From the NCBI GenBank assembly GCA_051294375.1, contig CM119271.1:1358721-1422720 (forward strand): a DNA stretch of 64,000 bases, written 5' to 3'. Within the stretch, counting starts at the first letter, position 1; each line of letters starts with the position of its first letter. Shown here piece after piece: positions 167 through 60,388 of the stretch. The notes below the pieces were generated by a model. The model was not told the DNA's origin. It made no database searches and worked only from the letters and a program-made list of their open reading frames with translations. The translations under genes were made by a program, and so were the position numbers. This stretch comes from Paraspadella gotoi. Its lineage: Eukaryota; Animalia; Chaetognatha.

Positions 167-3100
167 ATGGAAGAAGAGGAATTCGTCGCGGAAACGCAGA
201 CTTTAGACGAACTGGACGATCCTCTTCCGTCGACGCAAATCCTCCACGACCCGGAAGATCCTCTTTGGCAGACGCAGTCATTACTCGACACGGCGCCCGA
301 ACCCTGGGCGATTCTTACCTTCGCCGATCTCCGAGCAGCCGCCCGGCCTTATCCGCTCTTTCAGGGCGTTAACGCTGTGGGGCGTGACACTGGCGCCGGC
401 GTCCAAATCTCCACGGGGGTTTTGTCGAGGCGTCACGCCGTCGTGGAGCTCCACGAACAGGTCTACCTCGTCTATGATGTTGGAAGTCGGAACGGAACGA
501 AGCGGAACGGGGTGAGACTCGAGCCGGAAGTGCGATACGAACTGAGAGACGGCGACCGAGTCTCTTTCGGCGGTCTGGTCGGGGTCTTTCGCCCCTCGCG
601 GACGATTCCTCACGATGACGGCGACCAGGACGAAATCTTCGGAGAGATAGAGAGCGACGCAGAATCTACGGCGGAGGCGAGAGTCTTCGACGACGACGAC
701 GACGACGACGAAGATGGAGACGAGGAGTTTCTGAAATCGACGCAGGATTATGGCGGGACAGGGAGGACAGATCGTGAGGCGGTGACGACCGGTTCTGAGA
801 TTATCTCGAGTAGTGAGAAATCAAAGGACGATTTATCCTATAACAGCGACCTGGATGCATCATCTCGCAACACCGCGAATATAAAGATAGAAACGGCTGC
901 CGACGCCTCGAAAATGTTCGAGGACGATGACGAGGAATTTTTAATCCCTACGCAGCTTTATCCTCGCCCAGCTCGGGAGACTGTGGCTGAGACGGCGAAA
1001 GTTCATAGTCATCCATCTCCATCCTCGAATACAGAGAAATCTGTTTTGGAAGATGATGATCTAGAAGAATTAGAGATGGAGACTCAAGCTTATCCCCTAT
1101 GGACAAGTCCCTCTGTGGGTCGGTCCGTTGAAACTGCTGAGAGTCCCTCCGATAAGAATGAAAGATTTGCGGCTGGAAAAGATGAGGGTGAAGAGGATCA
1201 ATCTTTATTAGCTACTCAGGATTATTACTCGAAATCAGCCTTCCGAATTGGCAGATCAGATAAAGAAAATGTTCAACATAACTTTAACTTGGATACTCAA
1301 GCATACACTTCATTATCCCAAGCTCCTAAGAATAATAAAAAAGTCGAGAATAGTCTCGAATTTGATGAAGACGAAAGAATTTTGGAAACTCAAGCTTATT
1401 CAAATACCAGTTTTTCAGGCAATGTTCCCGATAATGACTTACCCGACGAGACGCAATCCTATCTTTCATTTTCCGAACTTGAACCACCTTCGAGTCGACA
1501 GGTAAGAAAACATTTGGATGAAAGTGTAAAGTTGGAGGAGGTCGACCAAAGCTTCTTAGCCACTCAAGCTTATTTTTCTCCTAAAACAACGTCTCACCAC
1601 GAAAACTTAACTGGCGTTAATCATGGGGAATTTGCAATTGCGACTCAAGCTTATCCGTTATCAGATCATCATGTTTCGATCGGACGAGAAACTTTTTTTG
1701 AAAATAAAAACTTGACCGAAACTTTAATGGTGAAAGACGAAAGATTAATGCCGACACAAGATTATTCTTCGCCTGCTGAAAAGAGTTTTCCCAAAAAAGT
1801 TGTTGGTCGCGAGGATTCGGCAGCCCAGACCCAATCATTGTGTAAAAGAAATAACGTAAATTCCTCTATTGAACTCGAGGGAGAAGATAATACTTTGTTA
1901 GAAACCCAAGCTTATTTTGCAGCTCCAATAATAGAAGATCCGGACGACTTGGCGCAACCGTCCTTTGAAAAATCACACTTGAATCAAGACGATAGTTTAG
2001 TTAAAGATAATGATCAAAGTTTTTTGATCGCAACTCAGGCCTATTTCTCTTCTTCCAAAATTACTGAAAGCTCTGTGGATAAAAATGGCAACAACAATTC
2101 GAGTTATTTAATCTTACCGGAATCGACTAAAGGTGAGTATGAATCAATGTTAGAGACACAGGCTTATCCCTCAAAAACTCCATCAGGTTTCAACTGTAAT
2201 CAAATCGAAGACGACGATCAATTTCTCGCAGCAACTCAAGATTATTCATCATCCTCTGCGAAATTAATCGACGCCGACAAAACGATCTCTTTCGCCTCGC
2301 CCCGTCGGAACGAACCGCGGCATATTTTGGACGATGATATCTTGATGGCGACTCAAGATAATTCTAATTATTCATTGACCAAGAAAAATGACGATTGTGA
2401 CCCGAGGAGAAAATGTCTTCCAGATCTACCCATTCCTTCCGACGATGATGAAGATTTGCCAGAAACACAAGATTACTATAGCCTTTCAGTCCAGAATCGT
2501 AACGACGTTTCTAACCGAGATAATTTAAAAACTCAAAAGTTTTTAGCAGAAAATGAAAATTGGGACAACGATGGCAACGATGAAATTCTTCAACCGAGAC
2601 AGGATTATTCTGAGAAGTGCTGCGATCCTTATTCGAATCCCATCGACGATCAATTAGAGGAGGATGATACGCAGATTTTTAACACAGTTATTCCCGAAAC
2701 TCCTGAAAAAGAAAAAAGCTTAGTTAGTGATATTAATAGCAGAAAAGGAAGTAAGATGTTACCATCGGTTTTGAAACATACTCTAAGAAAAAGTCTGGCA
2801 AAGCGAAAAAGCGTTTCTTTTGACGGAAATAGTGGAAATACGAGCGATCGACTTGAACCTTTTGAAATTGAATACAAAGACTCGGACGAAACCCAGGTGT
2901 TCCCCATTGATTTTAATCGTTCGTTTGTTCCCCTGAGACTTTCAGAGCCGACCTTAATGGAAACCCAGAAATATCCGGATGAAACTCGTGGCAAAAACTC
3001 TTCACCATTTGTAGTTCCCAGCATTCCTAAACCATCTCGTAAAACTGGAAGAAAACGAACATTCAACCCCGCTTCATCTCACGGGGAAGTTAAAAAGTTG

Positions 3101-4066
3101 AAATCTAATATCCAAGATTTGGAAACGCAATTGATCAATGATTCGTTATCATCAAGTGATGTAATCACTGATACTAAGAAACAAAATGAGAGAGATGATG
3201 TGCCAACGCAACAGTTTGAGTCGATTGCCAAATTGATCGTCTCGAACAATGGGGACAAGAATGAACCATCTGCAATAAGTGGAGAGGCTTCGTTGACATC
3301 AGAAAATAGTCAATTAACTAGCAGCGTTATCCTCCCGAATTCTGGGGAAACTTTCAAGGCGCCCGAGACCGCGTGTCGAAGATCCAAACGTCATGGGAAT
3401 ACAACTCCGGCACTGATCAACAAAAATCCGTCCGAAAACGTGCGAAACTTGCGAAAATCCATTTGCACGAACGGAATGAAAATCGTATTCACTGGCGCCG
3501 TCGATCCAAACGCTCAAAAAATAGTGAAAGAGCTTGACGGATTCGTGATCAGTTCCGACGATCCAAAAGACGCCGCTTCCCAGGCCGATCTCGCAATCAT
3601 GGACAAAGAAAATGTTAGGAGAACCTTAAAGTATCTCTGCATGGTCGGCCTTGGGAAACCAGTCGTCGATTTTCAATGGATTTTCGATTCTAAATTATCC
3701 AATAAATTTGTGGATTATCGAAAGTATTTCATCAGCGTTGAAGTGAAGCGCATGCACGAGAGCGGAGGTCGCGTGTTCAAAGGTCTCCGTGTTCACGTGA
3801 CACCCTCGGTCGTGCCTTCCCCGACCCAAATGAGAGACATTATCGTTTGCGGCGGCGGAGAATATTTAAACGTGATGCCAAAGGGTGATAACAACAGTTG
3901 TATCATCGTTTCGTGCTCTCAAGATCTCTATCTCATTCCAGAAACGATTTCATTACCTGTCGTCGATAAAGAATTTATTTTAACCGGCGTTATTTCCGGC
4001 AATTTGAATACTTCAAATTATAAATTAAACTTCTCGAAAGTTCGAAAGAAAAAAATAAGTTCATAA
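167..4066 (+). CDS. MDC1: MDC1-like DNA-damage mediator (FHA, TQxY/F repeat region, tandem BRCT), single exon
   Basis: 1299-aa ORF. N-terminal FHA motifs (VGR...LSRRHA...DVGSRNGT). Acidic middle with many TQ-x-Y/F motifs. C-terminal BRCT pair (IVFTG...RRTLKYL...W; VTPSVVPSPTQMRDIIVCGGG). Confidence 0.85.
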   Translation: MEEEEFVAETQTLDELDDPLPSTQILHDPEDPLWQTQSLLDTAPEPWAILTFADLRAAARPYPLFQGVNAVGRDTGAGVQISTGVLSRRHAVVELHEQVYLVYDVGSRNGTKRNGVRLEPEVRYELRDGDRVSFGGLVGVFRPSRTIPHDDGDQDEIFGEIESDAESTAEARVFDDDDDDDEDGDEEFLKSTQDYGGTGRTDREAVTTGSEIISSSEKSKDDLSYNSDLDASSRNTANIKIETAADASKMFEDDDEEFLIPTQLYPRPARETVAETAKVHSHPSPSSNTEKSVLEDDDLEELEMETQAYPLWTSPSVGRSVETAESPSDKNERFAAGKDEGEEDQSLLATQDYYSKSAFRIGRSDKENVQHNFNLDTQAYTSLSQAPKNNKKVENSLEFDEDERILETQAYSNTSFSGNVPDNDLPDETQSYLSFSELEPPSSRQVRKHLDESVKLEEVDQSFLATQAYFSPKTTSHHENLTGVNHGEFAIATQAYPLSDHHVSIGRETFFENKNLTETLMVKDERLMPTQDYSSPAEKSFPKKVVGREDSAAQTQSLCKRNNVNSSIELEGEDNTLLETQAYFAAPIIEDPDDLAQPSFEKSHLNQDDSLVKDNDQSFLIATQAYFSSSKITESSVDKNGNNNSSYLILPESTKGEYESMLETQAYPSKTPSGFNCNQIEDDDQFLAATQDYSSSSAKLIDADKTISFASPRRNEPRHILDDDILMATQDNSNYSLTKKNDDCDPRRKCLPDLPIPSDDDEDLPETQDYYSLSVQNRNDVSNRDNLKTQKFLAENENWDNDGNDEILQPRQDYSEKCCDPYSNPIDDQLEEDDTQIFNTVIPETPEKEKSLVSDINSRKGSKMLPSVLKHTLRKSLAKRKSVSFDGNSGNTSDRLEPFEIEYKDSDETQVFPIDFNRSFVPLRLSEPTLMETQKYPDETRGKNSSPFVVPSIPKPSRKTGRKRTFNPASSHGEVKKLKSNIQDLETQLINDSLSSSDVITDTKKQNERDDVPTQQFESIAKLIVSNNGDKNEPSAISGEASLTSENSQLTSSVILPNSGETFKAPETACRRSKRHGNTTPALINKNPSENVRNLRKSICTNGMKIVFTGAVDPNAQKIVKELDGFVISSDDPKDAASQADLAIMDKENVRRTLKYLCMVGLGKPVVDFQWIFDSKLSNKFVDYRKYFISVEVKRMHESGGRVFKGLRVHVTPSVVPSPTQMRDIIVCGGGEYLNVMPKGDNNSCIIVSCSQDLYLIPETISLPVVDKEFILTGVISGNLNTSNYKLNFSKVRKKKISS

Positions 4067-4087
4067 TTATTTTCTTATGAATTTATG

Positions 4088-4110
4088 GTTTTTGTTCTCT
4101 CTTTTTTAAG
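4088..4110 (+). promoter_or_regulatory. Candidate trans-splice acceptor between MDC1 and TMEM69
   Basis: Polypyrimidine tract TTTTTGTTCTCTCTTTTTTAAG ends 15 nt before the TMEM69 ATG, in a 59-nt gap after the MDC1 stop. Confidence 0.5.
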
Positions 4111-4125
4111 TTCGATTTTAAAAAA

Positions 4126-4785
4126 ATGTCACTCTTTAAAAATGTGATAATCGCGGGATTTCCTCGCGGTTTTCACAACTCGTTATTATCGGGAAAGATT
4201 TTGGGCACCTGCTCCTTTTGTTTCGAGAGACTCGACAAGAACTATTCGACCACGAATCGACTCAGAGATGCGAAAGCCAAAGTCCCGGCCAAAACCGGAT
4301 TCGTCAAGAAATACTTGAGTCTGGCGTTGAAAACGACTTCCGCTCCATTCGCTCCTCTCCTCTTTGGAGTCAGCGGGCTCATTCCGTTTTATTATCCGCC
4401 CGTGATGATGATATATCAAGCCTCTTTCTCCGACGATCTGATGTTCATGCATCTTGCCTACGCCGCGACCATCCTCTCCTTCCTCGGCGGCGTCAGATGG
4501 GGTTATTGCCTTTCCCCCTCCAGCGAAACCAACCCCAATTTGCTGAATTTGGGATATTCGGTCTCGCCGCAACTCATCGGCTGGGGTTCCCTGCTCCTGC
4601 CCAACGTTCCCGGTTCCGCGTTATTGTTGATTGTTAGTTTAACCGCGTGCGCCGTTTTCGATGCCAAGATGCCTGGGTATCCGTCCTGGTTTTTGGGTTT
4701 GAGAATATTTTTAACTACCGGCGCCGTGTTTTCTTTGATTATAAGTCTCGCGTGTATGCTGGTTTTTAAGTACTTATCGAAGTAG
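4126..4785 (+). CDS. TMEM69: TMEM69 / DUF3429 membrane protein, single exon
   Basis: Family motif LAYAATILSFLGGVRWG, several hydrophobic helices, and a C-terminal YPSWFLGLRIFLT. Basic, transit-peptide-like N-terminus. Confidence 0.85.
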   Translation: MSLFKNVIIAGFPRGFHNSLLSGKILGTCSFCFERLDKNYSTTNRLRDAKAKVPAKTGFVKKYLSLALKTTSAPFAPLLFGVSGLIPFYYPPVMMIYQASFSDDLMFMHLAYAATILSFLGGVRWGYCLSPSSETNPNLLNLGYSVSPQLIGWGSLLLPNVPGSALLLIVSLTACAVFDAKMPGYPSWFLGLRIFLTTGAVFSLIISLACMLVFKYLSK

Positions 4786-6905: not shown

Positions 6906-8416
6906 ATGAACATGGCAAAACTTATCAAGCCATGTTTACTAAATTCGATCGTCTTATTAATTTTATTTCGTCTGTCTTCCGAGGAAATACATCGAGCAAA
7001 CAGTCAACAACAACAACAACAACAGTGTTCAAGTTTTAATCATTCCTCATCTTCTTCTAGTGAGTTATTACCAAATACTAATAATTACATTAAGTATATT
7101 AATTTTCCACCATAGTTGACCACCTTTTTTCGTTCCGCAAATTCCCCACCCTCAGGTCCAGTTTTCTACGCCGTCCTCGCAACGTGCGTAGTGGGCAGCG
7201 CCGGCATCGTCCCTCTCATCTTCATTCCGTTCGACACTGGCGCGGAATTGCGCAAAAAGAACAGCCTCTCGGCCAAGCGGCTCGAGAAGTTTCTTTCCTT
7301 CGCCGTCGGCGCGCTATTGGGGGACGTCTTCCTGCATTTACTCCCCGAAGCATACGCAAGTATGAACTTGAGGCTGACTAATTGAACGTGACAACTATAA
7401 CGACAACAGCGACGACGACGACGAGCGAATTATGCGGATTGAAAACTCACCACTCAACCGTTCAATGGGTTAACTTATTTTATTTGTCAAACTTTATTTT
7501 TGGGTAGGCCTATTAACGACTCGGGAAATGGAAACTTGAAAATAGTAATTAAACTTCCTGTATAAGATATTCCATTAATAATTGGAAGCTTCTCTCATCC
7601 CTCCCCTTTTTTTAATCAGATGTTAATCCAGTTTCGATTGAAGAAAGCGTTCACGTCGGGTTGTGGGTCCTCGTCGGTCTCGTCTCCTTCATGACCATCG
7701 AAATGCTGATGAACGGAGACGACAGTGGGGACGACGACGACGACGACGACGACCGCGAAACGAAAGGATCGTCGATCGTCGATCGTCCCCAACTCGTCGC
7801 CTCGAACCAAAAAACGAAAGAAAAGCTCAACGAGTCGAAATCGGCTCCATCGGAATCATCTCGTCCTCAGAGTTCCATCGCCGTCAGCGGATACTTGAAC
7901 CTTTTCGCCAACGTGATCGACAACTTTACGCACGGATTGGCCGTCGGCGGCTCTTATCGATCCTCCTTGAGGTTGGGCCATTTGACCACCCTCGCCATCC
8001 TCCTCCACGAAGTGCCTCACGAAATCTCCGACTTCGCCATCCTCCTCCGCGCCGGGTTCGATCGGTGGGGCGCCGCCAAGGCGCAGATCCTCACCGCCTC
8101 GGGCTCGCTCCTCGGGGCGTTCGTCGGATTGAACGGTGAGAGAGGGGAAGGGCGGGTTTGCGCGGATTTGATGGAATGGATGGAGGGATGAATTTATTTG
8201 ATTGCGTCTGTTGAAATTGGTTAAGGTGGCGCTTTTATCGGGACTACCTCGTGGATTCTTCCATTCACCTCCGGAGGCTTTTTATACATATCGCTCGTCT
8301 CCGTTGTTCCGGATTTGATCAATCAAAATGAAACTCTGTCCTCGGCTGTGCAGCAAATCTTTTTTATTTTGCTGGGCGTTTTGTCCATGAGCATAGTCAA
8401 CGTGTTTCATACTTAG
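6906..8416 (+). CDS. SLC39A13: LIV-1 family zinc transporter ZIP13; 4 exons approx. 6906-7059, 7156-7359, 7620-8136, 8226-8416
   Basis: Motifs FAVGALLGDVFLHLLPEA, GYLNLFANVIDNFTHGLAVG, LHEVPHEISDFAILLRAGF and WILPFTSGGFLYISL. GT-AG boundaries keep frame. TAG at 8414-8416. Confidence 0.88.
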
Positions 8417-9760: not shown

Positions 9761-11836
9761 ATGTCTCAAAGGGGAGGCCGTCCGCCCTCGAAAAACTGGG
9801 CGGCGGGACTGAGACCCATGACCAAGGATCAGCTCTCCTCCCGGCCGCCACCCTCCGAGATTCCCAAGGGCGTAACTCCAAGCGAAGAGAAGGAGTTTAG
9901 ATTCCTCATGGGTCAAAGCTTCATGGGAGGCGGGCTGGACGGATTGGTGGGCGGCGGGGCCGGGCCGGGCGGCTTTGAACAGTCGCAGGCTGGCCAGCGG
10001 AAGGAAGATCTTCCTCAAGAGGCCGTCGACGACATGTTGTCAACGATTCTGCAAAAAGCGCAAACCGACCTTCTGCACGTTAATCCGGCTCTGGTCGAGC
10101 CGCCACCACTACCGCCGCCGACGCCAAATCAAGGAACGCCAAGCCCATCGTATCCAACCAATTCGCCTTATTTGGATGGATTTTTTTATCCCGGCGCTTC
10201 GGGTTATCCCGTAGCTCCCGGATTTCCCTCCACTTCGTTCTCCGCCCATCCCCCTTTACCCGCCGCTCACTCGTACCCCAATTTCGACCAGTTTGGTCTC
10301 CAGTTTCAAAATCCCCCCAGTACTTCGGCCCCCCTGACTCTTCAATCGCCCTCCCCCGAGTTCGACATTGGCATGTACTCGGTTCCGGCGGCCTCCCCTC
10401 CCACCGAAACCGAAGACAAAGTCGATTCTCCTCCTAAAGACGGAGAGAAAAAGATCCAACGCAAGTGGAGCAACATTTTGAAGCCGCCGGAGGAGGAGAA
10501 GAGCGCCTCCGCATCCTCGGTCTCGCCGAAAGTTCTCTCTTCTCCATCGCCCGCCAGAAACCCGTGGGAGCGCGAATCGAAGGGAGAGTTGGAGAGACAT
10601 TCGGCTTCTCCGGCGAGGGAGTTGGCGGGGGAATCGGCTAGTTTTTCGGAAGTCGCGTCTGATTGCATGATTGGCGCTTCCTCGAGCGAGAGCTTCAAGA
10701 ATATCATGGAATACGACATCGACCCTTTGGAGATGACACCGAGCGGCAAAGAGTTCGTCGATGTTGTCGAAGGCCGTTCATCCAAGTATCCTTTCGAAAG
10801 GACGAATAGAGTTTTGTGTCATCTCTGCCGAGAAAGGCGTCTTCCTTCCAACGCGTTGACTCGCCACTTAGACGGCGACAATCATCGCAAAAACCTCAGG
10901 GACTACGTCTTGGCCCGAGAGTACGATCTCTATGAAAAAAAATCGATAGACCCGTTGTATTCCGCCAAATACCCCGACTTTACCACGTACCTGTTGCGCA
11001 AATATCCCGAACGCACTGAAGAATTTTTTTTAAAGACGCAATATATCGACGATTCCTCACGTTTCGTGAGGAATCGATTCGTTTTAAAACATCCTCCAGT
11101 CAAACTCAAGTTAAAGGAGAAAGGATCGTCGAAAGAATCCAAAACGGAGACGGAATCTAAAAAGAAGAACAAATTAGAATCGACTCCCTGGAAATGTTTG
11201 ATTTGCTTGGAGGAGATGTCCGCGAGAGACGGCGTCAAACATTCTTGCCAAAAGAAAAAGGCGGAGGAGGCGGTGCCGAGCTCGGGAGTCCCGAGATTCA
11301 AACCGCGACGCGTCGTGCCCGAACAATTTGCCGACTTCGAGTCGGTCATTCCACCCGACGCCGTCGACGTTCGTCCCAAGACGGAGATGTGTCAAGAGTT
11401 CGCGCGGTTCAGCATTTGCCAGTATGGGAAAAAGTGCATCTTCGCCCATCGCGAGACGGAACTGCACACGCTCACATATCGGAGGATCAAGAGCGAACTG
11501 TGCAAGATCGAGGGTTGCGTGGCCGTGGGATGCGGACGGGCGCATGGAGAGGATGAATTGGAGGTCATCAAATACAAGACTCAACTGTGTCGCGGATTCG
11601 TCGAGTTTGAAACATGTCAGTACGGGAACAAGTGCCATTTCGCCCATGGGGTCAAGGAAATGCTGTCGCCCTTTGACTCGTTGCCCATCGGGCGGAAGGC
11701 CGCCGAGGCGACGACGTCGACGACGAAGACGACGTCGATGCTGGAGACTCGAATAATTTCCCCCAAGTTGACAGACGAAAGTCCCAGTTGCAAAAAACCA
11801 AAAATCAAGTTGACATTGAAAACTTCGTTCAACTGA
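9761..11836 (+). CDS. CCCH zinc-finger RNA-binding protein (TIS11-type fingers plus a matrin/U1-like finger), single exon
   Basis: Two C-x8-C-x5-C-x3-H fingers with KTEMC/YKTQLC lead-ins flank a compressed third finger. Upstream CHLC...HLDGDNH finger. Pro/Ser-rich N-terminus. Confidence 0.8.
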   Translation: MSQRGGRPPSKNWAAGLRPMTKDQLSSRPPPSEIPKGVTPSEEKEFRFLMGQSFMGGGLDGLVGGGAGPGGFEQSQAGQRKEDLPQEAVDDMLSTILQKAQTDLLHVNPALVEPPPLPPPTPNQGTPSPSYPTNSPYLDGFFYPGASGYPVAPGFPSTSFSAHPPLPAAHSYPNFDQFGLQFQNPPSTSAPLTLQSPSPEFDIGMYSVPAASPPTETEDKVDSPPKDGEKKIQRKWSNILKPPEEEKSASASSVSPKVLSSPSPARNPWERESKGELERHSASPARELAGESASFSEVASDCMIGASSSESFKNIMEYDIDPLEMTPSGKEFVDVVEGRSSKYPFERTNRVLCHLCRERRLPSNALTRHLDGDNHRKNLRDYVLAREYDLYEKKSIDPLYSAKYPDFTTYLLRKYPERTEEFFLKTQYIDDSSRFVRNRFVLKHPPVKLKLKEKGSSKESKTETESKKKNKLESTPWKCLICLEEMSARDGVKHSCQKKKAEEAVPSSGVPRFKPRRVVPEQFADFESVIPPDAVDVRPKTEMCQEFARFSICQYGKKCIFAHRETELHTLTYRRIKSELCKIEGCVAVGCGRAHGEDELEVIKYKTQLCRGFVEFETCQYGNKCHFAHGVKEMLSPFDSLPIGRKAAEATTSTTKTTSMLETRIISPKLTDESPSCKKPKIKLTLKTSFN

Positions 11837-12390: not shown

Positions 12391-13827
12391 ATGGAATTCC
12401 GCGCAAACGGCGGCGACGCCTCCGCCGCAGGCCCCGCCATCGAGATCATCGAGCCGCTTTGGCAAAAGTGTATCCGGTGCGTGGCGGCTCGCGTCGCTCT
12501 CTACGAGGACGAACTCGTCACCCTCCCCCCGAACATCAAGGAGCGCCTGCTGAAACTGCTCTGCCAGCGAGGCCGGCTCAACAATCGCTTGCTGACGGGC
12601 CTGGTAAACAATCGGACCAAATCCCTCAGCCTCGGCGACTGCCCCATCGACGACGACGGGATCAAGGCTCTTGCGGGATGCGAAAGTCTCCGCCGACTCG
12701 ACCTCAACAGCGACCCTAAGGTAACACGACAAGAAAAACCATATTCCCCATCCGAAACTTTTGTTCAACCTTCGTTTTCCGACCTTAATTATTTCCGACC
12801 TTAATTATGTTGGACATAAACTCTCGTCAACTGACGGAAAACCCCGCTCATCAATTATTTCCGACAAACCCTACAAACCCCCTTCACCTCGATCTAGGGC
12901 TACGCCCATCGGGTCACCTCCGTCGGCATCCAGGCGGTCGCCGGAGCTTGCAAGTATCTGCAGCACGTTGGCCTGCGGCGCTGCCTGGCCGTCGACGACG
13001 ACGCTGTGGTGGCCGTGGCCAACGGCTGCCCACTGCTGCGACGCATCAACCTCTGCGGCGTGTCCAGATTATCCGACGTGGCGTTGGACGCCTTGGGGGC
13101 GCGGTGCTCCCACCTCGAATCCATAGACTTTTCCAACACCAACGGTGCGGGGGCTAGGGGCTATAATTGTACTTGTATGAGAATTGTGCCGATAGATGCG
13201 TGGTTTTTTAAATTCTCCTGCTCTCCCACTCACTCAGTGACCGACTCTGGCGTTCTGTCCATCGCCAACGGCGCCTGTCGTGGAGCCTTGCGCGAGATCC
13301 TCATGTCCAAATGTCCCAACTTGACGGACAACGCCGTCGAGTGCGTCATCTCTCTCTGCCCCATCATCGACATTCTCGTTTTTCACGGTTGCCCCTTGAT
13401 AAGCGAGAGATCCAGGTTCGTAGTTTGACTTTTATTGATTGATGATAATTAAATACTCAAAGAAAATTTTAATAATCAAATCGCCTGTTTTGCGATTGTA
13501 GCAGAGTAATTTTATTGATAACCGATAATGAATTTGTTTGGATGACCGTCTTTCCTATACGATTTGCCGTTTGTTCTCTTGACGACATTAATAAATTCCC
13601 TTCTCACTTACTTTTTCCCCCTTTTCTTCGACAGAGAAGCCTTGGAGGAATTGATGCAGCTTCGCGCGGGCGCCAACGAGGATGGTCAGTCTTTTCACTC
13701 GGGATCTCCTCTTACCGGCGGAGGTTTTCCCTCTTCTCGATTTCCCTTCAATCCCAACGGCCTTCAAGGGCAGGGGGGGTTCGCCAGATCACCAAAGCTG
13801 AAGCAAGTTACTTGGACCATTTATTGA
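12391..13827 (+). CDS. AMN1: AMN1 leucine-rich-repeat protein; 4 exons approx. 12391-12720, 12899-13144, 13238-13415, 13635-13827
   Basis: LPPNIKERLLKLL, Cys-containing LRRs, ILVFHGCPLISERSR and the diagnostic C-terminus KLKQVTWTIY. GT-AG introns. Confidence 0.85.
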
Positions 13828-18708: not shown

Positions 18709-21023
<2,315 letters not shown>

Positions 21024-26560: not shown

Positions 26561-26596
<36 letters not shown>

Positions 26597-26695
26597 AAAG
26601 AGGAGGGAGTTTCCAACAAAGAATTGAGCAAAGGACAGTGGTCAGATATGAGGACAGGTGAAGGTAGAATCAGGGGAAAAGTTGGGTGAAATTTG

Positions 26696-26731
<36 letters not shown>

Positions 26732-48342: not shown

Positions 48343-51098
48343 ATGATTTCTCCGGCCGTCTCTCTCGGCCGAAACTCGACTTTCCGGCAACTTTGTCGAA
48401 CAACATTCCGGTTGTCCTACCCTTTACATAGTCGACAATTGAGCAACAACAACGACAAAGTTGAGGACTATGAATCTTCGTTCCGCCGATCACTCGCGGA
48501 TCCGCGGGGATTCTGGGCCGACGCCGCAGAGAAACTCGTCTGGCACAAAAAGTGGGATAGAATTTTGGACGATTCGAACCCGCCTTTCATCAAGTGGTTC
48601 GTCGGCGGCGAAATCTCAGCCTGCTACAACGCCGTCGACAGACACGTCGAGGCGGGCGACGGCGACAAGGTCGCCCTTATTCACGACAGTCCCGTGACGA
48701 ATTCCTGCAAAACCGTCACGTATGGGGAATTGCTATCTCAGGTGGTTGTCGTCACGAGGCGGTTGACATTTGTGGTGGTTTTCCATCACAAATCTACCTA
48801 AGTTGCTCAAGGTTAAAAACTTTTTTCTCTGGAGAGACACGTATGGAAGAGAAATATTTAGATTATACAATTTGAAAGAATTCCGTGAGTTAAATGACTC
48901 GTAAAAGAATAGTATTTACTATGTACCGATGAAAATATATTATATATATATATAATAAATTAAAAATATCTAAAATCCATACCACTCAAGGTTCGATGCT
49001 TGGCGGACGTGCTCCGCCGCCAAGGAGTCGAAAAGGGCGACCGCGTTGTAATCTACATGCCGATGATCCCCGAGGCCTGCGTGGCCATGCTGGCCGTCCA
49101 GCGCCTCGGCGCCTGCCACTCCCTCGTCTTTGGAGGCTTTGCGGCCAAGGAGCTGGCGACGAGAATCGACCATGCCATGCCCAAGGTCATCTTGACGACC
49201 AATTGCGCCGTAGAGCCCGACCGTATCATCGATTACAAGGCCACCGTCGACGAGGCCCTCAAGATCGCCACCCACCCTACACTCAAGACGCTCGTGTTCG
49301 ACCGACCAGAGGCGCTGCCGGCAAAGCTAAATCCCCGACATGACCTCAACTGGCAAGAAGCGGTAGCGGGCGCCATCGGGGTTGACTGCGTCCCCTCCGC
49401 CGCCACCGATCCCATGTACATCCTCTACACTTCCGGTACGACGGGGAAACCCAAAGGCATTCCGCGGCCGCTCGCGGGGCAGATCGTCTGCCTTCATTGG
49501 AGTATGAAGAATCTCTATGGAATGAACCCGGGAGAGGCGTGGTTTTGCGCCTCGGACCTCGGTTGGGTCGTCGGCCACTGCTACGTCTGCTACGGACCCC
49601 TTTTAGCCGGAAACCCTTCAATCATTTACGAGGGAAAGCCCGTGACGACGCCCGACGCTGGCGCACTTTGGCGCGTGCTGAGTCAGCACGGCGCCGCGGG
49701 TCTATTCGCCTCGCCGTCCTTCGTCCGCGCCGTTCGTCGGGTCGATCCCAACGCAGCGCTCAAGTCGCCCCACGACCTCTCCAAGCTGCGCAACCTCTTC
49801 CTGGCCGGGGAGCATCTCGACGTCAACACGCTGAGTTGGCTGCGTGACGTCGTGGGCGAGGGGGTCGGCGTCCTGGACCACTGGTGGCAGACGGAGACTG
49901 GATTCGCCATCACGGCTCCCTGCGTCGGAATGAGCGGGGCCGGTCGACAGCCCGACGGGTCGGCGGGGCTACGAGTGCCCGGCTGGGATCTGAGGGTGCT
50001 CAGAGAGGACGGATCAGAGGCCGAGCCCAACGAATTGGGGTCATTGGCCGCCAAGCTTCCACTGCCGCCTGCTTCCTTCGATACGCTGTACAAGGCCGAC
50101 GACAGATTTGTTTCGACTTACTTCGAAAAGTTTTCTGGTTATTACGATACACAGGTGAGGGTATGATGTCAGTATAACGGACTTCGACTATAACTTTCAG
50201 CTGCACTTAAAGAATGGGCCGTTATAACTCTCTTACGAAATATGAAAAAAGCATATTCTCGAGCTCGAATTACAAGAATAAATAGGAAAACCACAAAAAA
50301 ATATAACGCAACAAACTTTGCTCATTTAAAATAATAATATAAACCTCTAAAGAGATAAAGTAAAATTTTATTATTATTTAATCAAAACACAACAATATGC
50401 AAATTGGTTTATCACTCAATCTCATTGGAAACGATTCACAAATTACTCTGCTTCACACTCATCGCCTTACGATGATGATGGATGGAAATCTAAGTTACCC
50501 ATTTTGTTTTTTGAGGTTTACATCGATAATTACTGTATTAAGTATTAACCGTTAAAGAGAGTCATACTGATAAAACCAATTGGACCGAATCACTATTACT
50601 TTCGTAATTTTTGTGTTATCATCACAGGACGCTGGGATGATCGACGCTGACGGTTTCGTCTTTGTTCTCTCTCGTCAAGACGACGTGATCAACGTTTCGG
50701 GGAAGCGCATCTCCGGTGGGGCGCTTGAGGAGGCCATCATGCGGCAGACGGATGTTGCCGAGTGCTGCGTCTTTGCCATACCCGATGAACTGCAGGGCGA
50801 GCGGCCCGTTGGGCTCGCCGTTCTCAAGGGCGATGTTGTCAAGAGTCGCGAGGCGATCGCCAAGGAGATCGTCGGCCTGGTCCGCAGCAACGTGGGTCCC
50901 GTTGCTGGATTTAAGACCGTCGTCTTCGTCCCGCGCCTGCCCAAGACGCGAACGGGCAAGATCCCGCGCAGCACAATCGCCGATCTGGCCACGGGGAACC
51001 CGGTTAAGATTCCCGTCACTATAGAAGACGAGACGGTCTACGGCCCGCTGGACGAGGCCTTTAAGGAAGCGGGGCTCAAGCTCAAGGTCAAACCTTGA
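48343..51098 (+). CDS. ACSS3: Mitochondrial acyl-CoA synthetase short-chain family member 3; exons approx. 48343-48741, 48991-50154, 50628-51098
   Basis: Transit-peptide-like N-terminus. KWFVGGEISACYNAVDRHV, AMP-binding YILYTSGTTGKPKG, ASDLGWVVGH, DHWWQTETG and LPKTRTGKIPR. Confidence 0.9.
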
Positions 51099-52131: not shown

Positions 52132-55100
52132 ATGAAAGGTTTCGATGAAAAAGATGAGAGCGACGCACGAACTAACAACGACGACGTCGCGGACAATGAT
52201 TTTGAAAGGAAAAGGAGAGAACTGGAAAGACGAGTGGGAGGAGAAAAGGAAGCCGAAAAACAATTCGTGATTATGGGTGAAGAAATGAATCGTGAGGATG
52301 CTGCGCCTGTGATACGGACGATTCAGAGTGACAGGATGAACGAGCAAACAGTCGACGCCTCTAATATCTCAAAGGGTCCCGTCGATCTCACCGTGGACCC
52401 TTCAATGGATCTCAATGGAGACGTCGTTACCCTTCCAAGTGTGACCGAGGATAATTCTGCGACACATTCGGCCATTTTTAACATCGACTCCTCAAGCAAT
52501 AACCTCAAAGTTTCTAATTCGAGCTTCAAGGATGAGCAGCCCTCACTTCTCACATGCGCGCTCGTCGAAAACTCCAACGAAGCTCCCGTCCCTGATCTTC
52601 CGGACGATGTTTCCCCCTCGAACAAACCTCTTGAGCCCCAAAATTTCACGACAGTCGCCCCTCTGTATTTTCTTCCAGACCCTGCTAAATCTGAGTCCCT
52701 GGAGCACGACCCTCCTCATTCCGAGTCCCCGAACTTGATTCCTCCTAAATCCGAGCCTCTAAAACTTGACCCTCTTAAATCGGAACCGAATCCACCGCCA
52801 CCAACAGTCGCCATCGTCGTAGAAGAAATCCTTGACTCCGACAGTTCCGTTTCCCTCCCTCCTTCTCCCCGACGCCGTCGACGGTCGCGCCCTCTTCGAT
52901 CCTCGCCCACTCGAGACTCGGACGTGGAGATTCTCAGTTCCGACGACGAGGCGATCCTGCTCAAAAAAGCCGAAGATGCGCGGAAGAAGAAGAGACAGGT
53001 TGTCCGGGGTCCAAAATTAATATGAAATTGCATTCGGTGAAGACTCTGAAGTGGTATGATTTTTTTTGCCAACTTTCTTCCAACTACATAAATTTAAGGA
53101 CAGCTCCCATAAATATTTGATCAGGGGAATACTATTGTATAAGCAGCTAAGCAGCCTTTTTTTCCAAAACTTTAGTTTACATATGAAATCGCCTCTCAGG
53201 AAAAGACAGTCCTCGACACCTCCAAGAACATCCTCAACTCTATCAAACGATTCAAGTCTTCAAACGGCTCCATCAAGATACCTTCGTTGAACAACATCGT
53301 CAAGAAGCAAGTCGTCGATGCGAACTCAAAGGGTCGTTGGGCCGGCGACGCTGTCGAAGCCGTTGAAGGCGTCACTAATGGTTCCGATCCCTCATCGCCG
53401 TGGACGATAGAGGAGAGTCGAGGCAGCACACCCTGCGAGGACCCGCTGCAACCGGAGGAAGGCGATGAGCCGTGGGAGGAGGCGGATGAGGGGGAGAAGA
53501 AGGAAGAAGAGGCTCGACCGGCAGAGTCTTTGACGGCAGAGGGCGTGAGGGAAGCGGCGCGGAAGAACGCCGCCATCAACGCCGAGTACAATGTCGAGAA
53601 GATTCTCAAGGTTGGTTAATGGTTATTGGCAATTCGGTTTGTAAAGCGGCGGAGGAGGAGGATTTTGAAAAGATTGTCTTCCCCCACCTTACAGGGACTA
53701 AAGGCCGCGACGCTGACCCTCAACAAGATTTCCGACGTCCGTAGCCGAGCGGACGAAAGCGCGGAGGCGGCGGAATCAAAGGAGAGTTTTTGCGAGATCG
53801 TGATCGACTCTAGCGACGACGACGACGTGGACGACAAGGCGGACGTCGACCGAAAAAACGACGACGACAACGGTTTGGAGAAAACTCAGGTGGCCAAAGT
53901 CGCCGAGCAACTCAACGATGCAGGTCGGGATATTGTACCTATTATCGTTCTTGTCATTTTTGTCACTTTTGTCATGACATTGTTAACGTTTTAGTCAAAT
54001 AACGAGGTTAATTAATTAGTGAATACAAGTTATTAGGTTGACAATAGTTTAACAACGGGCAATGATAAAGGTTGGGGTCTTTCCAGGCGTCACTGTTAAA
54101 AAGGCCGTCCCCAAAAAGCCGAGGCAATTATTTCCCAAATGGCAAACGGTTCCCAATCTTCCTTCGATGGAGGATGTAGTTTCAGAAAATCGACCTGTGA
54201 CGCAACCGCCGCCTCTCCCAGACCATTTGCGACGACCCATGAAGGTTTGTTGGTTTATTGAGAGCGATATGGCGGAATTTGAATCGAATGGAACAAAATT
54301 CGTGTTTAGCAGAATCTCTTTAAATATTATTATAATACATACATTATGGCTACTAATATATAATAATAATGGATAATTTTTATATTGGTTGTACCAATTT
54401 CATATATATATATATATATATTATAAAAGTCTCCCTCGTTCTCCTTTCCTCCCTCCAGGTACTCTCCATGTTCGACGGAATCTCCGGCTGCTTCGTCGCC
54501 CTCCGCCAACTCGGCATCAGCGTGGACACTTACGTCTCGAGCGAGACGGACGCCTACTCGAAGATCGTGACGATGATTCGCCATCCCGAGGCCGTACAGG
54601 TTGGCGACGCGCGCGGTGTCGACCGCCGCCTTCTCGAGGAGCACGGACCCTTCGATTTGCTCGTCGGCGGCCTCCCGGTCGACGACTTCGAATCCCGATC
54701 CTCGCTGAAGGAGCATCGTCCGGGGATGCACTTCGAGGCCTTCGTTGACGTGCTCAACCTTTGTTGGAAGCATCATCGAAAGGTTTGGCGAAAGCTGGAT
54801 GAGAATTTGAGGAGGTTTTATATAGAGTATCAATGAATACTTGTACTTGTTTAAATCATTAACGAGTTTATCACAATGTTTTTACCCTTGTCTCCTTTAC
54901 AAACCGTCCACGTTCATTTTACAACCTACAGTCCGGTCTACTCACGCCCTTCTACTGGTGCTTCTACAACGTCGACCTCGTTCCTCGTCACCGCGACGAA
55001 ATCACCTCCACGCTCGGCTGTGATTGCGTCAAACTTGACGCCGTCCATATCTCGCCCATGAGGAGACCAGACTTTTTTTGGACCAACCTTCCCGGGATGG

Positions 55101-55750
55101 AAATGGTGCTTAAGCCGGACCCGCGATGGGACCGAACCGTGTTACAGGTCCGGGGGTGTTAATGAGAGAGAGGGAAGCTTAACCTCTTCCTCCTCAAATG
55201 TTCGCGTTCCCCCCCGTATACGAGATAGGCGGACGGAGGAAGGAGCAGGGCGTTAACCTGGAGGCCCTTTTTCAAAATATAACATTGTGTACGAGATAGG
55301 CGGACGGAGGGAGGAGCAGGGCGTTAACCTGGAGGCCCTTTTTCAAAATATAACATTGTGTACGAGATAGGCGGACGGAGGAAGGAGCAGGGCGTTAACC
55401 TGGAGGCCCTTTTTCAAAAATAACATTGTCCCCCCCCCCCATTCACTCCCCAGGATTGTCTCGAGCCCGCCCGGCTGGCCCGCGTCCGTCGTCTCAACAC
55501 CCTGACGACCTCCTTCGACTCGATGAAGCAAGGATCCTTCCATCAACCCCCCATCAATCACGAGGGTGAGCTCGATGATCTCTGGATGGTTGAGGTGGAA
55601 CGCGTTCTCGGCTTTCCCGATCATTACACGGACGTGGCGAATCTTCCGCCGCGCGATCGACTGGCGCTTCTTGCCATCTCCTGCTCCGTCCCGCTCGTCC
55701 GTCACATCCTCGCTCCGCTGAAAGACTATTTCGCCGTCGAGAAGGCGTAG
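52132..55750 (+). CDS. DNMT3-family protein with substituted catalytic residues; 7 exons approx. 52132-52998, 53200-53610, 53694-53922, 54087-54244, 54459-54783, 54932-55147, 55454-55750
   Basis: RRPMKVLSMFDGISG, VGDAR, GPFDLLVGGLPVDD, PFYWCFYNV, RRPDFFWTNLPGM, LQDCLEP, SMKQG, VERVLGFPDHYTDVANL and SVPLVRHILAPLKDYF are collinear with the DNMT3 methyltransferase domain. The frame stays open across GT-AG junctions. Linkage of the N-terminal exons is less certain. Confidence 0.85.
55216..55429. repeat. 71-bp tandem triplication in the last DNMT3-like intron
   Basis: ACGAGATAGGCGGACGGAGG recurs at 55220, 55291 and 55362. Units are almost identical. Confidence 0.9.
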
Positions 55751-56429: not shown

Positions 56430-59012
56430 ATGAGTCGAGATCCCGCCGGTTCTGTCTCGAGTGATCATCGCCAAAGTCAAAGTCGGTGAGGCTCGAAAAT
56501 GTGGAGACAATCCACGAGGTTTTTGAAGTCAGATACAAAAAGGGTTTGAATAATAACACTGTAAATCTCATATCAAAAAATATCGCAGGGTACATCAGCA
56601 ACAATATAAATAAAAATAGAATTAATTAATTAATTAAAGCGTAGCAAAAATATTGAAATCAAGGAGAATAAAAATTCGAATATTTATAAAATTATAAAAT
56701 TCATATTTAAATTTTAACTCAATAAAATCGTTGTGAACACAAAAATCGATTTTTTCCTAATATTTAATTTAAAAAAAAATTGTCAATTTTCGCATATCCC
56801 ATAGTATACATAGTATACATAGTATACATAGTACTCATCATAGAAAATGTCAATTTAAAATGTTTTTTTCTTATTTTTGAAAGCAGATGCGAATTTTTCT
56901 AGAAAGTTGATAAAAGGAAATATAAGAACTTTCACTACGCCTTATTAATTAGGCAACGTGTGAAACATTACTAATCTTCGAGATTATCCTGCATTTTCAT
57001 GTAATTAAGATAAAATTTATTTTCCGTCAAAAAAAACCTATTTCATTAATTGTTCAGTTCTTTTTTTAAAAATAAGATAACTGTCAGGGTAATAATTAAA
57101 CCTAAAAGCTTATCCGTTGCCGATAGTAAGTCTTTTAATGTCCGTTGACGAGAATTACCCGTCGGATTCGACTTAATCTTGGGTCTCCTTTGATTTATTA
57201 CTTCCAAGTTCATCTTCCCATCACCATCTCATTTCATCGCCGAGAGAGAAATCCACCACCGTGGTTCCATCGACCTGTTCCAAAGAGTTGACTAGAGCCG
57301 AACCGGAATCAACTCGAGAAAACCTCGAATCCGACACCGGACTCTTTGATAACGGTGAGGGTGCCGGAACGCACGGTTGGGATGGTGCGCTTACCCGCTA
57401 TGACACAGATGATTCGATATTAATGTAGTTGATGTGAGGCAGTTTCTTTAAATAATATATCATTTGCGCGATTTAGTTAAAAAAATATATTTTTAAATCT
57501 CAGTTCCCGACCTCGAATCGCTTTTCTCCCCGAATCCGAAGCCAGAGAATCAACGTCTTGACCCACGCCCTGATAGTTCAGTCAACCACCGCCTCGCCCG
57601 CTTCTCCTCGGTCCCAACTTCCCACCGTTCTTTCGCCCGAGTCGAAGCCTCTCAACCTGCCTCTCAATCCCAGTTGCAGTCCATCCCCGAGACCGCCGCC
57701 TCCGGCTCCGCCCGACCGAGGAAACGATCTCGACCCTCCATCGATTCCGTGAGATTGAAAAATTCAAATTCGACGAGGGACGGGATCCAAGTTTGAAGTT
57801 TGGAAGGGAATTAATGACGGATCACAAAGAATGAGTTTCTTGAAGAATTCAGAAGCCGTAAAGGGTATATTTTAAAAGTGTTTGGTTCCAGCCCGTTAGA
57901 CTTATTAGTTTCGTATCATACTTTTAATTATCGACGGAAAGTACGAGCGAAAAAAGTGGCCAAAATAAACAAAAACTAAATTATTTAAAAAAAAACAACA
58001 TTTTTTCTTGAGGAAGGAAGGAAGTGGGTGAGAAAAGGACGAGGTTTCGCCACAGCCAAAGGAGGATTCTCTTTTTTTCGTTGCCTCAACCAACGAGCAG
58101 GAGAAGAAAGTTTTCTTTTCTCGCTTTTGTGAGAAACATTTTTGCGGTTGAGCGATCTTTCCAATTCTTTCTCCTTTTCTCTCTTTTTTTTTCTTTCTTC
58201 AACTCCTTTTCCGCTCGTTTCACTTTTTTTTTTTAAAACTCGTGCGCCCTTTGCATCTCAGGAATCCTCGCCAGCACTTTTCTCGTCCCCCGTCGAGCGC
58301 CTCGCCCCTTCCGCCGAGCGCCTCCCTCCGTCGGCGCCGACTCGCCGTGGACGAAAACCTTCGAAGCTCGACATGAAGTCCAAGTTGGAGAAAAGCCGAC
58401 AGAGCGCGCGGGAGTGTCGCGCCAGAAAGAAATTGCGCTACCAGTACTTGGAAGAGTTGGTCAACGCCAGAGAAAAAGCCATTCTCAGTTTGAGAGAGGT
58501 AGAAGCTGGAAGGGTTGGGGAAAGACTGAAGTGGGACGGGTTGTGGTTATAATTATATGGTCATTATTTGCTTCAAAAAATGTATATTTTGTAAATACAT
58601 GAAAAACTTTTTAAAATTATTGAATGTAGTTTTGCACCGATATTTAAAAAAATTAATAAGTTGTGCGGCAATAATTTATTATTCGTTTATCACCATTTTT
58701 CAAATGCCTCCCCCCCTTTTCCTCCCCTTCATTAAACTGTTTCAGGAGTTGGAGGTTTACAAAAACTGGTGCCGAGACATGGACGAGGGTCGCGTCCCGC
58801 CCGACATGAAGGCAAAGATGGAAAAGTTGGAGAAAAAATTGGAGATGCCCGGAGAGCGGTCGGGCGACGCCGAGTCCGCGGACCCGGCCGACGAGGAAGA
58901 CGACGACGAAGAGGACGAAGTCGATTCCGATGACGACGACGTCTCGGACGAGGAGGAGGAAGAGGACGAAGAAGAGGAGAGAGAAAGAGCTGGAGGAGGC
59001 TCCAATCGATGA
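56430..59012 (+). CDS. CREBL2: CREBL2 / REPTOR-BP bZIP protein; probable exons 56430-56485, 57209-57354, 57504-57748, 58262-58498, 58746-59012
   Basis: [39 protein letters not shown]...RE|[18 protein letters not shown] is diagnostic. The three upstream exons join with matching phases (2, 1, 0) but are lower confidence. Confidence 0.85.
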
Positions 59013-59374: not shown

Positions 59375-60388
59375 ATGATGTCGACTCGTTCCGACGTTTA
59401 TTCGTCCGCCTCTTCTCGACTACGACTTGATCCACCGACTCTACCCTCTCAGTCTATGTCCCTCTCATCTTCCCACCCTCCTTCCCACCGCCCACGCCTC
59501 TCACACTTTCCCAAAGAGCCCCTGTCGAGAGTAATGCCGCCCCGCGTGGCTTTGCTCCGCGGGCGCGCCCCTCTGACCGACGAAGAGATCCGAAAGCACG
59601 GGTGGAACCCCAACGACAAAAGTTCCAACCTCTACTTGCGACGCGGAGGAAAAAACTCAGAAGATCGGCTCTGGGTCCGACGGAACAACGTCGCTCGAAG
59701 CACGGACGCTATACGCGGCCGCACGGGTTACCGTGTTGGGACGCACCTTTGGGAGATCACTTGGGACACGAGTCAGCGTGGCACGCACGCCGTTGTGGGA
59801 GTGGCCACAAAGGACGCGCCACTACACTGCGATGGCTACCGGGCGTTGGTCGGCTCCAACGCCGAAAGTTTTGGCTGGGAACTGAGGACTAATAACCTTC
59901 TTCACAACGCGAGACCCGAAGACGATGAGGAAGAAGAAGAAGGCGGAGGCGGGGACCCCGCCGATCGTCGACTCTCTCTCGGCACCGAGGACGTGGACAA
60001 CAACGCCCCCGAGGCGCCGGGACGAATCCCGCTCAATCCGCCCCGCAAGTACCCGGTCAAGGGAGAGGCGCCCAACTCTTTCGAAGCGGTGCTGGACTTC
60101 GAGGACGGGACCCTCGCTTTCATCGTCGACGGGGAATACCAAGGAGTCGCCTTCGAGAATCTTAAGGGTCTCGAACTCTATCCCGTCGTCAGCTGCGTCT
60201 GGGGCCACTGCGAAATTCGCCTCCGCTACCTTGGCGGTCTCCCCGAGCAGCCATCCACCCTCTTTGACTATTGCAAGAGGACGATTCAAGCCAGAGTGCC
60301 CAGGAGGCAGGATTTAGAAGTCCTACCACTCCCCAAGCATATTTTGACGCATCTGAAAGAGACTCATCATTTGGGACAGGCACAATAA
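59375..60388 (+). CDS. SPSB: SPRY-domain SOCS-box protein (SPSB1/4, gustavus-like), single exon
   Basis: HGWNPNDKSSN, STDAIRGRTGY, QRGTHAVVGVAT, LVGSNAESFGW, LYPVVSCVWGHCEI, and a SOCS box (LFDYCKRTI...LPLPKHILTHL). Confidence 0.9.
   Translation: MMSTRSDVYSSASSRLRLDPPTLPSQSMSLSSSHPPSHRPRLSHFPKEPLSRVMPPRVALLRGRAPLTDEEIRKHGWNPNDKSSNLYLRRGGKNSEDRLWVRRNNVARSTDAIRGRTGYRVGTHLWEITWDTSQRGTHAVVGVATKDAPLHCDGYRALVGSNAESFGWELRTNNLLHNARPEDDEEEEEGGGGDPADRRLSLGTEDVDNNAPEAPGRIPLNPPRKYPVKGEAPNSFEAVLDFEDGTLAFIVDGEYQGVAFENLKGLELYPVVSCVWGHCEIRLRYLGGLPEQPSTLFDYCKRTIQARVPRRQDLEVLPLPKHILTHLKETHHLGQAQ

What the first reader, a model, noticed from the sequence alone, without database searches (positions are those of the whole stretch)
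167..60388. Seventeen consecutive co-oriented genes with tiny gaps and 5' acceptor-like sites: likely operons with SL trans-splicing
Seen: all 17 host genes, which are functionally unrelated, are on the + strand (2 x 0.5^17, about 1.5e-5 if orientation were independent). Stop-to-start gaps include 59 nt (MDC1-TMEM69), 451 (EDEM1-RABIF), 335 (RABIF-KLHDC4), 313 (KLHDC4-next), 474 (DUSP-APC) and 362 (CREBL2-SPSB). Pyrimidine-tract AG sites lie shortly upstream of many ATGs (AG ending at 4110, 6875, 9725, 12192, 17857, 21157, 22941, 24814, 41569, 46456, 52124). Known: polycistronic transcription resolved by spliced-leader trans-splicing occurs in nematodes, tunicates, flatworms and chaetognaths, and as very long clusters in kinetoplastids. 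Inference: a directional cluster of at least 60 kb would be unusually long for an animal.
Basis: partly seen in the sequence, partly recalled or inferred. Interest (0 to 1): 0.85.

Follow-up and report, generated by a model that had tools for sequence, protein, structure and literature searches.

The report
Seventeen same-strand genes, probable operon chain
Seventeen unrelated genes of an unidentified invertebrate all point the same way over 60 kb, which likely reflects several back-to-back operons whose RNAs would be cut apart by leader splicing, but no leader was seen and the proposed splice signals are no commoner than chance.

Summary
The run is real: 17 of 17 intact gene models lie on the + strand, the six quoted gaps are exact, and no opposite-strand host gene was found. 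But gaps are not generally tiny (median 617 nt; 1 of 16 under 250), and pyrimidine-AG sites are not enriched before start codons (P 0.07-0.8); 7 of the 11 listed sites are followed by out-of-frame ATGs. One public run confirms the introns and tiles 6.8-21.1 kb, but it carries unspliced background and consists of simplified contigs, so it shows neither co-transcription nor a leader. The animal is a bilaterian of unresolved phylum. CpG-rich genes, CpG-poor transposons and a DNMT3 without PWWP/ADD resemble chaetognaths and DNMT-retaining nematodes, both of which trans-splice. Best reading (0.58): several adjacent operons resolved by SL trans-splicing, a known kind of system. Separate promoters 0.24; one unit of 60 kb or more 0.12. 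The scan noted shorter, equally unproven operon candidates on other DNA.

The parts
167..4066 (+). MDC1-like gene (FHA + BRCT), no intron
   Evidence: gene name recalled from the domain layout
4067..4125 (+). 59-nt junction: no AATAAA/ATTAAA, T tract then AG ending at 4110, no room for a cis intron (shortest here is 57 nt); strongest operon candidate
   Evidence: crossed by one 3990-nt contig
4126..4785 (+). TMEM69-like gene (DUF3429)
6906..8416 (+). ZIP zinc transporter, 3 introns
   Evidence: first intron listed as a joint
9761..11836 (+). CCCH zinc-finger gene, no intron; AG ending at 9725 with no ATG after it
12391..13827 (+). Leucine-rich-repeat gene (AMN1-like, name recalled), 3 introns
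14796..17457 (+). EDEM1-like mannosidase, 6 introns
   Evidence: 6 of 6 introns listed as joints
17458..17908 (+). 451-nt gap with AATAAA at 17728 and T-rich AG ending at 17857, 129 nt apart: nematode-like operon spacing
   Evidence: spacing compared with PMC7668243
17909..18373 (+). RABIF/Mss4 gene, no intron
18709..21023 (+). KLHDC4-like kelch gene, 5 introns
   Evidence: 5 of 5 introns listed as joints
21337..22136 (+). Small lineage-restricted gene (162 aa, weak DUF4110 match, E 0.015), 1 intron; a stand-alone protein in relatives
22971..24522 (+). Dual-specificity phosphatase, 1 intron; the frame is open back to the AG at 22941
24997..40017 (+). APC, one 5.7-kb intron
26424..31566 (-). 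Decayed retroelement inside the APC intron, with direct and inverted terminal repeats (Penelope-like by recalled motifs); not a host gene
   Evidence: no Pfam match on 5 fragments
41614..45759 (+). DNMBP/Tuba, no intron
46487..47845 (+). C2H2 zinc-finger gene, 3 introns; AG ending at 46456 with no ATG after it
48343..51098 (+). Acyl-CoA synthetase (ACSS3/propionyl-CoA type), 2 introns
52132..55750 (+). DNMT3-like gene without PWWP/ADD matches, catalytic PC read as PV; 6 introns
56430..59012 (+). bZIP gene (CREBL2-like, name recalled), 4 introns
59375..60388 (+). SPRY-domain gene (SPSB-like), no intron

Best explanation
Seventeen unrelated genes lie head to tail on one strand, and this likely reflects a chain of several short operons plus singly transcribed genes in a compact invertebrate genome, in which downstream genes would get their capped 5' end by spliced-leader trans-splicing. 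Shown: the gene models, orientation, gap sizes and cis-splicing. Inferred: shared promoters for the tightest groups (MDC1-TMEM69; EDEM1-RABIF-KLHDC4-small gene; possibly DUSP-APC, ZNF-ACSS3, CREBL2-SPSB); cleavage and polyadenylation of the upstream mRNA followed by leader addition at an unpaired AG (best candidates 4110, 9725, 17857, 46456); and new promoters in the five gaps of 0.9-2.1 kb.
For: A run of 16 same-strand steps is about 47, 400 and 2600 times likelier at 70, 80 and 90% co-orientation than at 55%, and the genes are not tandem copies. The 59-nt junction has no canonical poly(A) hexamer and no room for a promoter or a cis intron, as in Ciona operons without intercistronic DNA (PMC1488885). 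The median stop-to-start gap of 617 nt falls in the Trichinella range for downstream operon genes (medians 103-749) and below that of monocistronic genes (1297-3211; PMC7668243). At the 5 listed AGs inside the laid stretch (4110, 6875, 9725, 12192, 17857) no joint is listed, while the coding introns are spliced, so they are not dominant cis acceptors of 5' UTR introns (inference, since 19 joints were hidden and about 16 can be accounted for). CpG o/e is 1.11-1.51 in 17 of 17 coding sequences but 0.69-0.80 in 3 of 3 repeat stretches; 3 of 4 900-nt repeat windows fall below all 38 coding windows; and the DNMT3 lacks PWWP/ADD. PMC12460157 states that the three phyla with transposon-only methylation all trans-splice.
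Against: No leader was seen: none of the 6 loose ends shown, of 157, lies at a listed AG. Acceptor-like sites are not enriched and score well below true acceptors. 7 of 11 listed sites are followed by out-of-frame ATGs. Poly(A)-to-AG spacing (3 of 16) and the Ur motif (3 of 16) are at chance level (P 0.24-0.32). Only 1 of 16 gaps meets the 250-bp operon criterion used for chaetognaths (measured there between gene models, here stop to start). Contig bridging of gaps is explained equally by unspliced background of about 56-80 on three introns. The phylum is unresolved. A compact annelid genome of similar density (209 genes/Mb against 266 here) has no operons (PMC7854359). CpG depletion in repeats is a composition argument, not measured methylation.
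Confidence: 0.58

Rival explanations
1. Compact genome with one promoter per gene; the run is a chance extreme picked out by a very large scan, and the AGs are background in T-rich DNA. TMEM69 would be transcribed from inside the MDC1 coding end.
For: No acceptor, spacing or Ur enrichment; upstream ATGs after 7 of 11 sites; median gap 617 nt leaves room for promoters; 0.11-0.47 runs of 17 or more expected per 15,000 genes at 50-55% co-orientation; Dimorphilus is compact without operons.
Against: Per-window probability 1.5e-5 to 7e-5; no shared promoter word stood out in the 500 nt before the starts, apart from one 7-mer in 6 of 17 among thousands tested; 59-nt junction; methylation-like signature shared with trans-splicing phyla.
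Confidence: 0.24
2. One very long polycistronic unit (60 kb or more, 17 or more genes), like a kinetoplastid directional gene cluster, with every gene trans-spliced.
For: Explains the run best by itself; contigs tile 6804-21081 at similar mean depth, 147-261; uniform unspliced background could be a shared primary transcript.
Against: 8 of 16 genes have no clean acceptor within 250 nt; five gaps of 0.9-2.1 kb, one holding repeats; the background is also explained by DNA; the longest animal operons in the papers read are 5 (Trichinella), 7 (Ciona) and 9 (Paraspadella) genes.
Confidence: 0.12
3. Read-through or dicistronic mRNAs at the tightest junctions only, with no spliced leader (leaky scanning or overlapping UTRs).
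For: One contig joins MDC1 and TMEM69 with no branch shown; no canonical poly(A) hexamer after MDC1 or KLHDC4.
Against: Does not explain 16 same-strand steps; contigs drop short branches and can be bridged by DNA; relatives hold the small gene on separate contigs of about 0.9-1.3 kb.
Confidence: 0.06

Closest known systems
Nematode operons resolved by SL2-type trans-splicing (C. elegans, Trichinella spiralis; PMC7668243)
   Same: Unrelated co-oriented genes; stop-to-start gaps of a few hundred bases; one gap with hexamer-to-AG spacing of 129 nt; nematodes that keep DNMTs methylate transposons and not genes (PMC9246332).
   Different: Trichinella operons reach five genes; spacing and Ur motif are not enriched here; no SL seen; nematode origin not shown.
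Chaetognath operons (Spadella, Paraspadella gotoi; PMC2481426, PMC12460157)
   Same: Closely clustered same-orientation genes; DNMT3 without PWWP/ADD; unmethylated gene bodies; placement outside the sampled arthropods, lophotrochozoans and deuterostomes is compatible.
   Different: Operons there are defined by gaps under 250 bp, the longest has nine genes, and signalling genes are depleted from them, whereas APC and DNMBP are in this run; chaetognath origin not shown.
Ciona operons without intercistronic DNA (PMC1488885)
   Same: The MDC1-TMEM69 junction has this anatomy: stop, short T tract, AG, ATG, no canonical hexamer.
   Different: Only 1 of 16 junctions is that tight; no tunicate among the 120 listed APC hits.
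Kinetoplastid directional gene clusters
   Same: Long same-strand run of unrelated genes.
   Different: Animal genes with 35 cis introns; half the genes lack a clean acceptor; only one window seen.
Dimorphilus gyrociliatus compact genome without operons (PMC7854359)
   Same: Gene density and short introns.
   Different: The passages read give no orientation statistics; a 17-gene run is not accounted for.

Membership tests
Animal operons resolved by SL trans-splicing | Adjacent unrelated genes on one strand | tested here: met
   17 of 17
Animal operons resolved by SL trans-splicing | Short intercistronic distance | tested here: inconclusive
   1 of 16 at 250 nt or less, 7 under 500, median 617 stop to start; within the Trichinella stop-to-start range; true poly(A) and 5' ends unknown
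Animal operons resolved by SL trans-splicing | Unpaired splice acceptor before downstream genes | tested here: inconclusive
   8 of 16 against 6.0-6.5 expected; unpaired for certain only at 4110; true acceptors are themselves weak (a quarter under 0.5 bit)
Animal operons resolved by SL trans-splicing | Common untemplated leader on mRNA 5' ends | tested here: inconclusive
   Only simplified contigs were available; 6 of 157 loose ends shown, none at a listed AG
Animal operons resolved by SL trans-splicing | One primary transcript across the gaps, one promoter | tested here: inconclusive
   Contigs cross the gaps but unspliced background is present
Animal operons resolved by SL trans-splicing | SL RNA gene in the genome | not testable with these tools
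   No genome held; none in the window by Rfam (0 hits); a donor-plus-Sm pattern gave one unconvincing AT-rich hit
Nematode SL2-type operons | About 100-nt poly(A)-to-acceptor spacing and a Ur (TAYYTT) element | tested here: not met
   3 of 16 each, at chance level, P 0.24-0.32; individual junctions such as EDEM1-RABIF may still fit
Kinetoplastid-type directional gene cluster | Every gene trans-spliced; strand switches rare genome-wide | not testable with these tools
   No genome, no related loci; 8 of 16 genes lack a clean acceptor

The most novel reading that the evidence does not exclude
An animal whose genes are laid out in kinetoplastid-like directional clusters: one transcription unit of at least 17 intron-containing genes and 60 kb, about twice the longest animal operon in the papers read, possibly in a phylum with no described trans-splicing.
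Probability: 0.12. Interest if true: 0.85.

Novelty: new member of a known kind. Interest (0 to 1): 0.4.

Why it matters
If the best reading holds, this adds one more invertebrate with SL-resolved operons. That is routine if the animal is a nematode or chaetognath, and a useful new point on the patchy map of trans-splicing if it is not. It would also fit the proposed link between loss of gene-body methylation and trans-splicing. If the whole run is one unit, it would show that an animal can drop gene-by-gene promoters over tens of kilobases, including for signalling genes such as APC.

Tried and rejected
No whole genome is held, so strand-run statistics and an SL RNA search were impossible. 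Run search: no holder on record as RNA; 1 of 3 listed runs holds the stretch. Only 3900-21100 was laid, so 6 of the 11 listed AGs have no RNA check. Rejected: contig bridging as proof of co-transcription, because three bins give 56-80 depth per intron base, two give 21 and 46, and five give about 0, and the tool warns that DNA may be in the run. Rejected: absence of a leader as evidence against, because Logan contigs are simplified graphs that report contigs over 150 bp (PMC12424806); that short leader branches are pruned is my recollection. Rejected: the AG list as evidence. Rejected: the small gene being an exon of KLHDC4 or of the phosphatase, since relatives have it whole and alone; a pairwise comparison with the KLHDC4 tail found nothing. 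Two metagenome scans with APC found no relative. Promoter-word search found nothing convincing. Rfam gave 0 hits. ESM Atlas gave no usable hit for the small gene and only generic methylase clusters for DNMT3. Phylum: grouping with pancrustaceans rejected (p-AU 0.017), with lophotrochozoans or deuterostomes not rejected (0.083 each); nematodes, chaetognaths, tunicates, flatworms and non-bilaterians were not among the rows. The four differences at 4101-4119 in the run do not look like the chaetognath leader ends in PMC2481426 Table 3 (by eye) and are read as an allele. Literature searches listed no animal with a directional cluster of this length; listings only, and the library is partial.
Full report
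Scope. The window was read whole. No genome is held, so everything rests on the window, one public run, protein relatives and papers. Confidence values are my judgement, guided by the likelihood ratios.

Gene content and orientation. Hand-built models give 17 genes from 167 to 60388, all on the + strand and open, with 35 of 35 GT-AG introns of 57-5697 nt. Families come from Pfam, named protein hits for APC and DNMBP and PDB for DNMT3. The names MDC1, AMN1, KLHDC4, CREBL2 and SPSB are recalled from domain layout. The least certain gene, at 21337-22136, is real: five homologues at 47-66% identity, two of them full length (163 and 179 aa) and matching both ends. Minus-strand ORFs outside the genes are AT-rich filler or pieces of a retroelement in the APC intron. 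The orientation claim stands.

Gaps. The six quoted gaps are exact, but they are six of the seven shortest. All 16 span 59-2120 nt, median 617; 1 is 250 or less and 5 are 900 or more.

How unlikely is the run? Sixteen same-strand steps have probability 1.5e-5 at 50% and 7e-5 at 55% co-orientation. A 15,000-gene genome would hold 0.11-0.47 such runs, so a large scan will meet some by chance. For this window the data still favour a biased arrangement by about 47, 400 and 2600 times at 70, 80 and 90% against 55%. The genes are not tandem copies.

The AG sites. All 11 exist. They are T-rich (68% T in the tract), whereas the cis acceptors are mixed T/C with CAG|G. Four tests bear on them. (a) Matrix from the 35 cis acceptors: the best upstream AG is a little above random within 100 nt (P=0.025) and not within 200 nt (P=0.085); 2 of 17 reach 4 bits against 49% of true acceptors, though a quarter of true acceptors score under 0.5 bit. 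(b) T-rich AG density before ATGs against other + strand intergenic DNA: P 0.07-0.80 in 6 settings. (c) 7 of 11 sites have out-of-frame ATGs before the main start, 5.6 expected. (d) Clean acceptor in 8 of 16 genes against 6.0-6.5 in shuffles; hexamer spacing and Ur motif 3 of 16 each; all P above 0.18. Four sites have no ATG after them and lie 15-51 nt from the start: 4110, 9725, 17857, 46456. The AG at 52124 has a strong donor 262 nt upstream and may be an ordinary cis acceptor. At 22941 and 41569 the frame is open from the AG into the gene, so an unseen upstream exon is possible.

The tightest junction. MDC1 stops 59 nt before the TMEM69 start. There is no AATAAA or ATTAAA, and only 44 nt lie before the AG, less than the shortest intron here. 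Either TMEM69 is cut from a shared transcript or its promoter lies inside MDC1 coding sequence. The first matches Ciona operons, where the acceptor AG abuts the upstream 3' end (PMC1488885, passages).

RNA. One of three listed runs holds the stretch (share 0.91; RNA status is the tool's guess). Laid on 3900-21100, 12 of 15 listed joints are GT-AG at predicted introns and 19 were hidden. My models reproduce the contig lengths (2724 predicted, 2724 reported) and show contigs tiling 6804-21081 at mean depth 147-261. One contig crosses MDC1-TMEM69, and another spans the ZIP, CCCH and LRR genes. This does not show co-transcription: three bins leave 56-80 depth per intron base in three different genes, two leave 21 and 46, five leave about 0, and the run totals 77 Mb of contigs, which suggests genomic DNA (inference). 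No joint or loose end is listed at the five AGs in the stretch. That argues against their being dominant cis acceptors, but says little on a leader: only 6 of 157 loose ends were shown, and these are simplified contigs (PMC12424806, passages).

What animal? The APC armadillo region is 64-75% identical to the named animals and annelid-like rows, and 90% to one unnamed protein. The quick tree puts the pair outside the sampled arthropods, lophotrochozoans and deuterostomes (the careful search did not finish). DNMBP is a long branch with no supported group. Pancrustacean placement is rejected (p-AU 0.017); lophotrochozoan and deuterostome placements are not (22 of the 48 rows). Nematodes, chaetognaths, scalidophorans, xenacoelomorphs and non-bilaterians were absent from the rows.

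An indirect clue to the lineage. All 17 coding sequences have CpG o/e 1.11-1.51, three repeat stretches 0.69-0.80; by 900-nt windows 3 of 4 repeat windows are below all 38 coding windows and one is not. The DNMT3-like gene has no PWWP or ADD match on its four N-terminal exons and only 3 cysteines in 555 residues. P. gotoi has transposon-only methylation and DNMT3 copies without these domains, and the paper notes that ctenophores, chaetognaths and nematodes, the three phyla with this pattern, all trans-splice (PMC12460157; passages, sections 5 and 9). Nematodes that keep DNMTs show the same pattern (PMC9246332, passages). This raises the odds of trans-splicing but is composition, not measurement.

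Comparison. Trichinella downstream operon genes have stop-to-start medians of 103-749 nt and monocistronic genes 1297-3211, with at most five genes per operon (PMC7668243, passages). Ciona reaches seven (PMC7986045, passages and Background) and P. gotoi nine, with 18% of genes in operons. Spadella has co-oriented clusters and 36-nt leaders (PMC2481426, passages and section 12). An acoel and a glass sponge trans-splice (PMC9911081, PMC10282587, passages). Dimorphilus is compact without operons (PMC7854359, passages). The Xenoturbella paper has no operon or trans-splicing statement in the passages found (PMC11521371; search 27). PMC6883708 (passages) gave nothing used. The operon table of PMC12460157 is a spreadsheet too large to open; three supplementary PDFs were searched without useful result, so that table may bear on gene order here.

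Verdict. The run is real and hard to dismiss, the acceptor list is not evidence, and no leader or shared transcript was shown. A chain of several SL-resolved operons is the most likely mechanism (0.58), ahead of separate promoters (0.24), one long unit (0.12) and read-through only (0.06). It works like known animal operons; membership is not established because leader and single promoter are untested. Earlier scan notes describe three- to five-gene candidates in other genomes with the same lack of RNA proof; none concerns this genome.

Noticed in passing
window 52132-55750: DNMT3-like protein whose catalytic GGSPCND motif reads GGLPVDD and which has no PWWP/ADD match: likely a catalytically dead, DNMT3L-like paralogue in an invertebrate.
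   Followed up: partly
window 26424-31566: Decayed retroelement on the minus strand in the APC intron, with about 500-nt direct repeats and an inverted copy, the layout recalled for Penelope-like elements; CpG o/e 0.78.
   Followed up: partly
window 21337-22136: Small lineage-restricted gene with a weak DUF4110 match beside KLHDC4; relatives keep an N-terminal DSGKDS, which resembles a phosphodegron (recalled), and a C-terminal RVDLDEGI.
   Followed up: partly
window 4101-4119: Four differences between the run and the window within 19 bases around the TMEM69 acceptor; the T tract and AG are kept and a second AG appears. Elsewhere one substitution in about 4.5 kb. Probably an allele, unexplained.
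   Followed up: no
window 6893, 22960, 41570, 52127: Out-of-frame upstream ATGs overlapping the main start of four genes, two as short start-stop overlaps.
   Followed up: no
window 48343-51098: After two unnamed 70% hits, the named best hits of the acyl-CoA synthetase exon are bacterial propionyl-CoA synthetases (52-57%); the length limit of 679 aa may have excluded animal ACSS3, so no transfer is inferred.
   Followed up: no
window 167-4066, 41614-45759, 31930-40017: Heavy intron loss: MDC1 and DNMBP have no intron and APC has an 8-kb exon; 6 of 17 genes are intronless.
   Followed up: no
window 23931-24067 and 61463-61599; 4870-5014 and 6158-6302; 55216-55428; 63448-63683: Dispersed repeat pairs (80% and 96% alike), a 71-nt triple tandem in a DNMT3 intron and an 18-nt tandem array.
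   Followed up: no
window 51315-51495: Short inverted-repeat element enclosing TTAGGG-like units, seen by eye.
   Followed up: no
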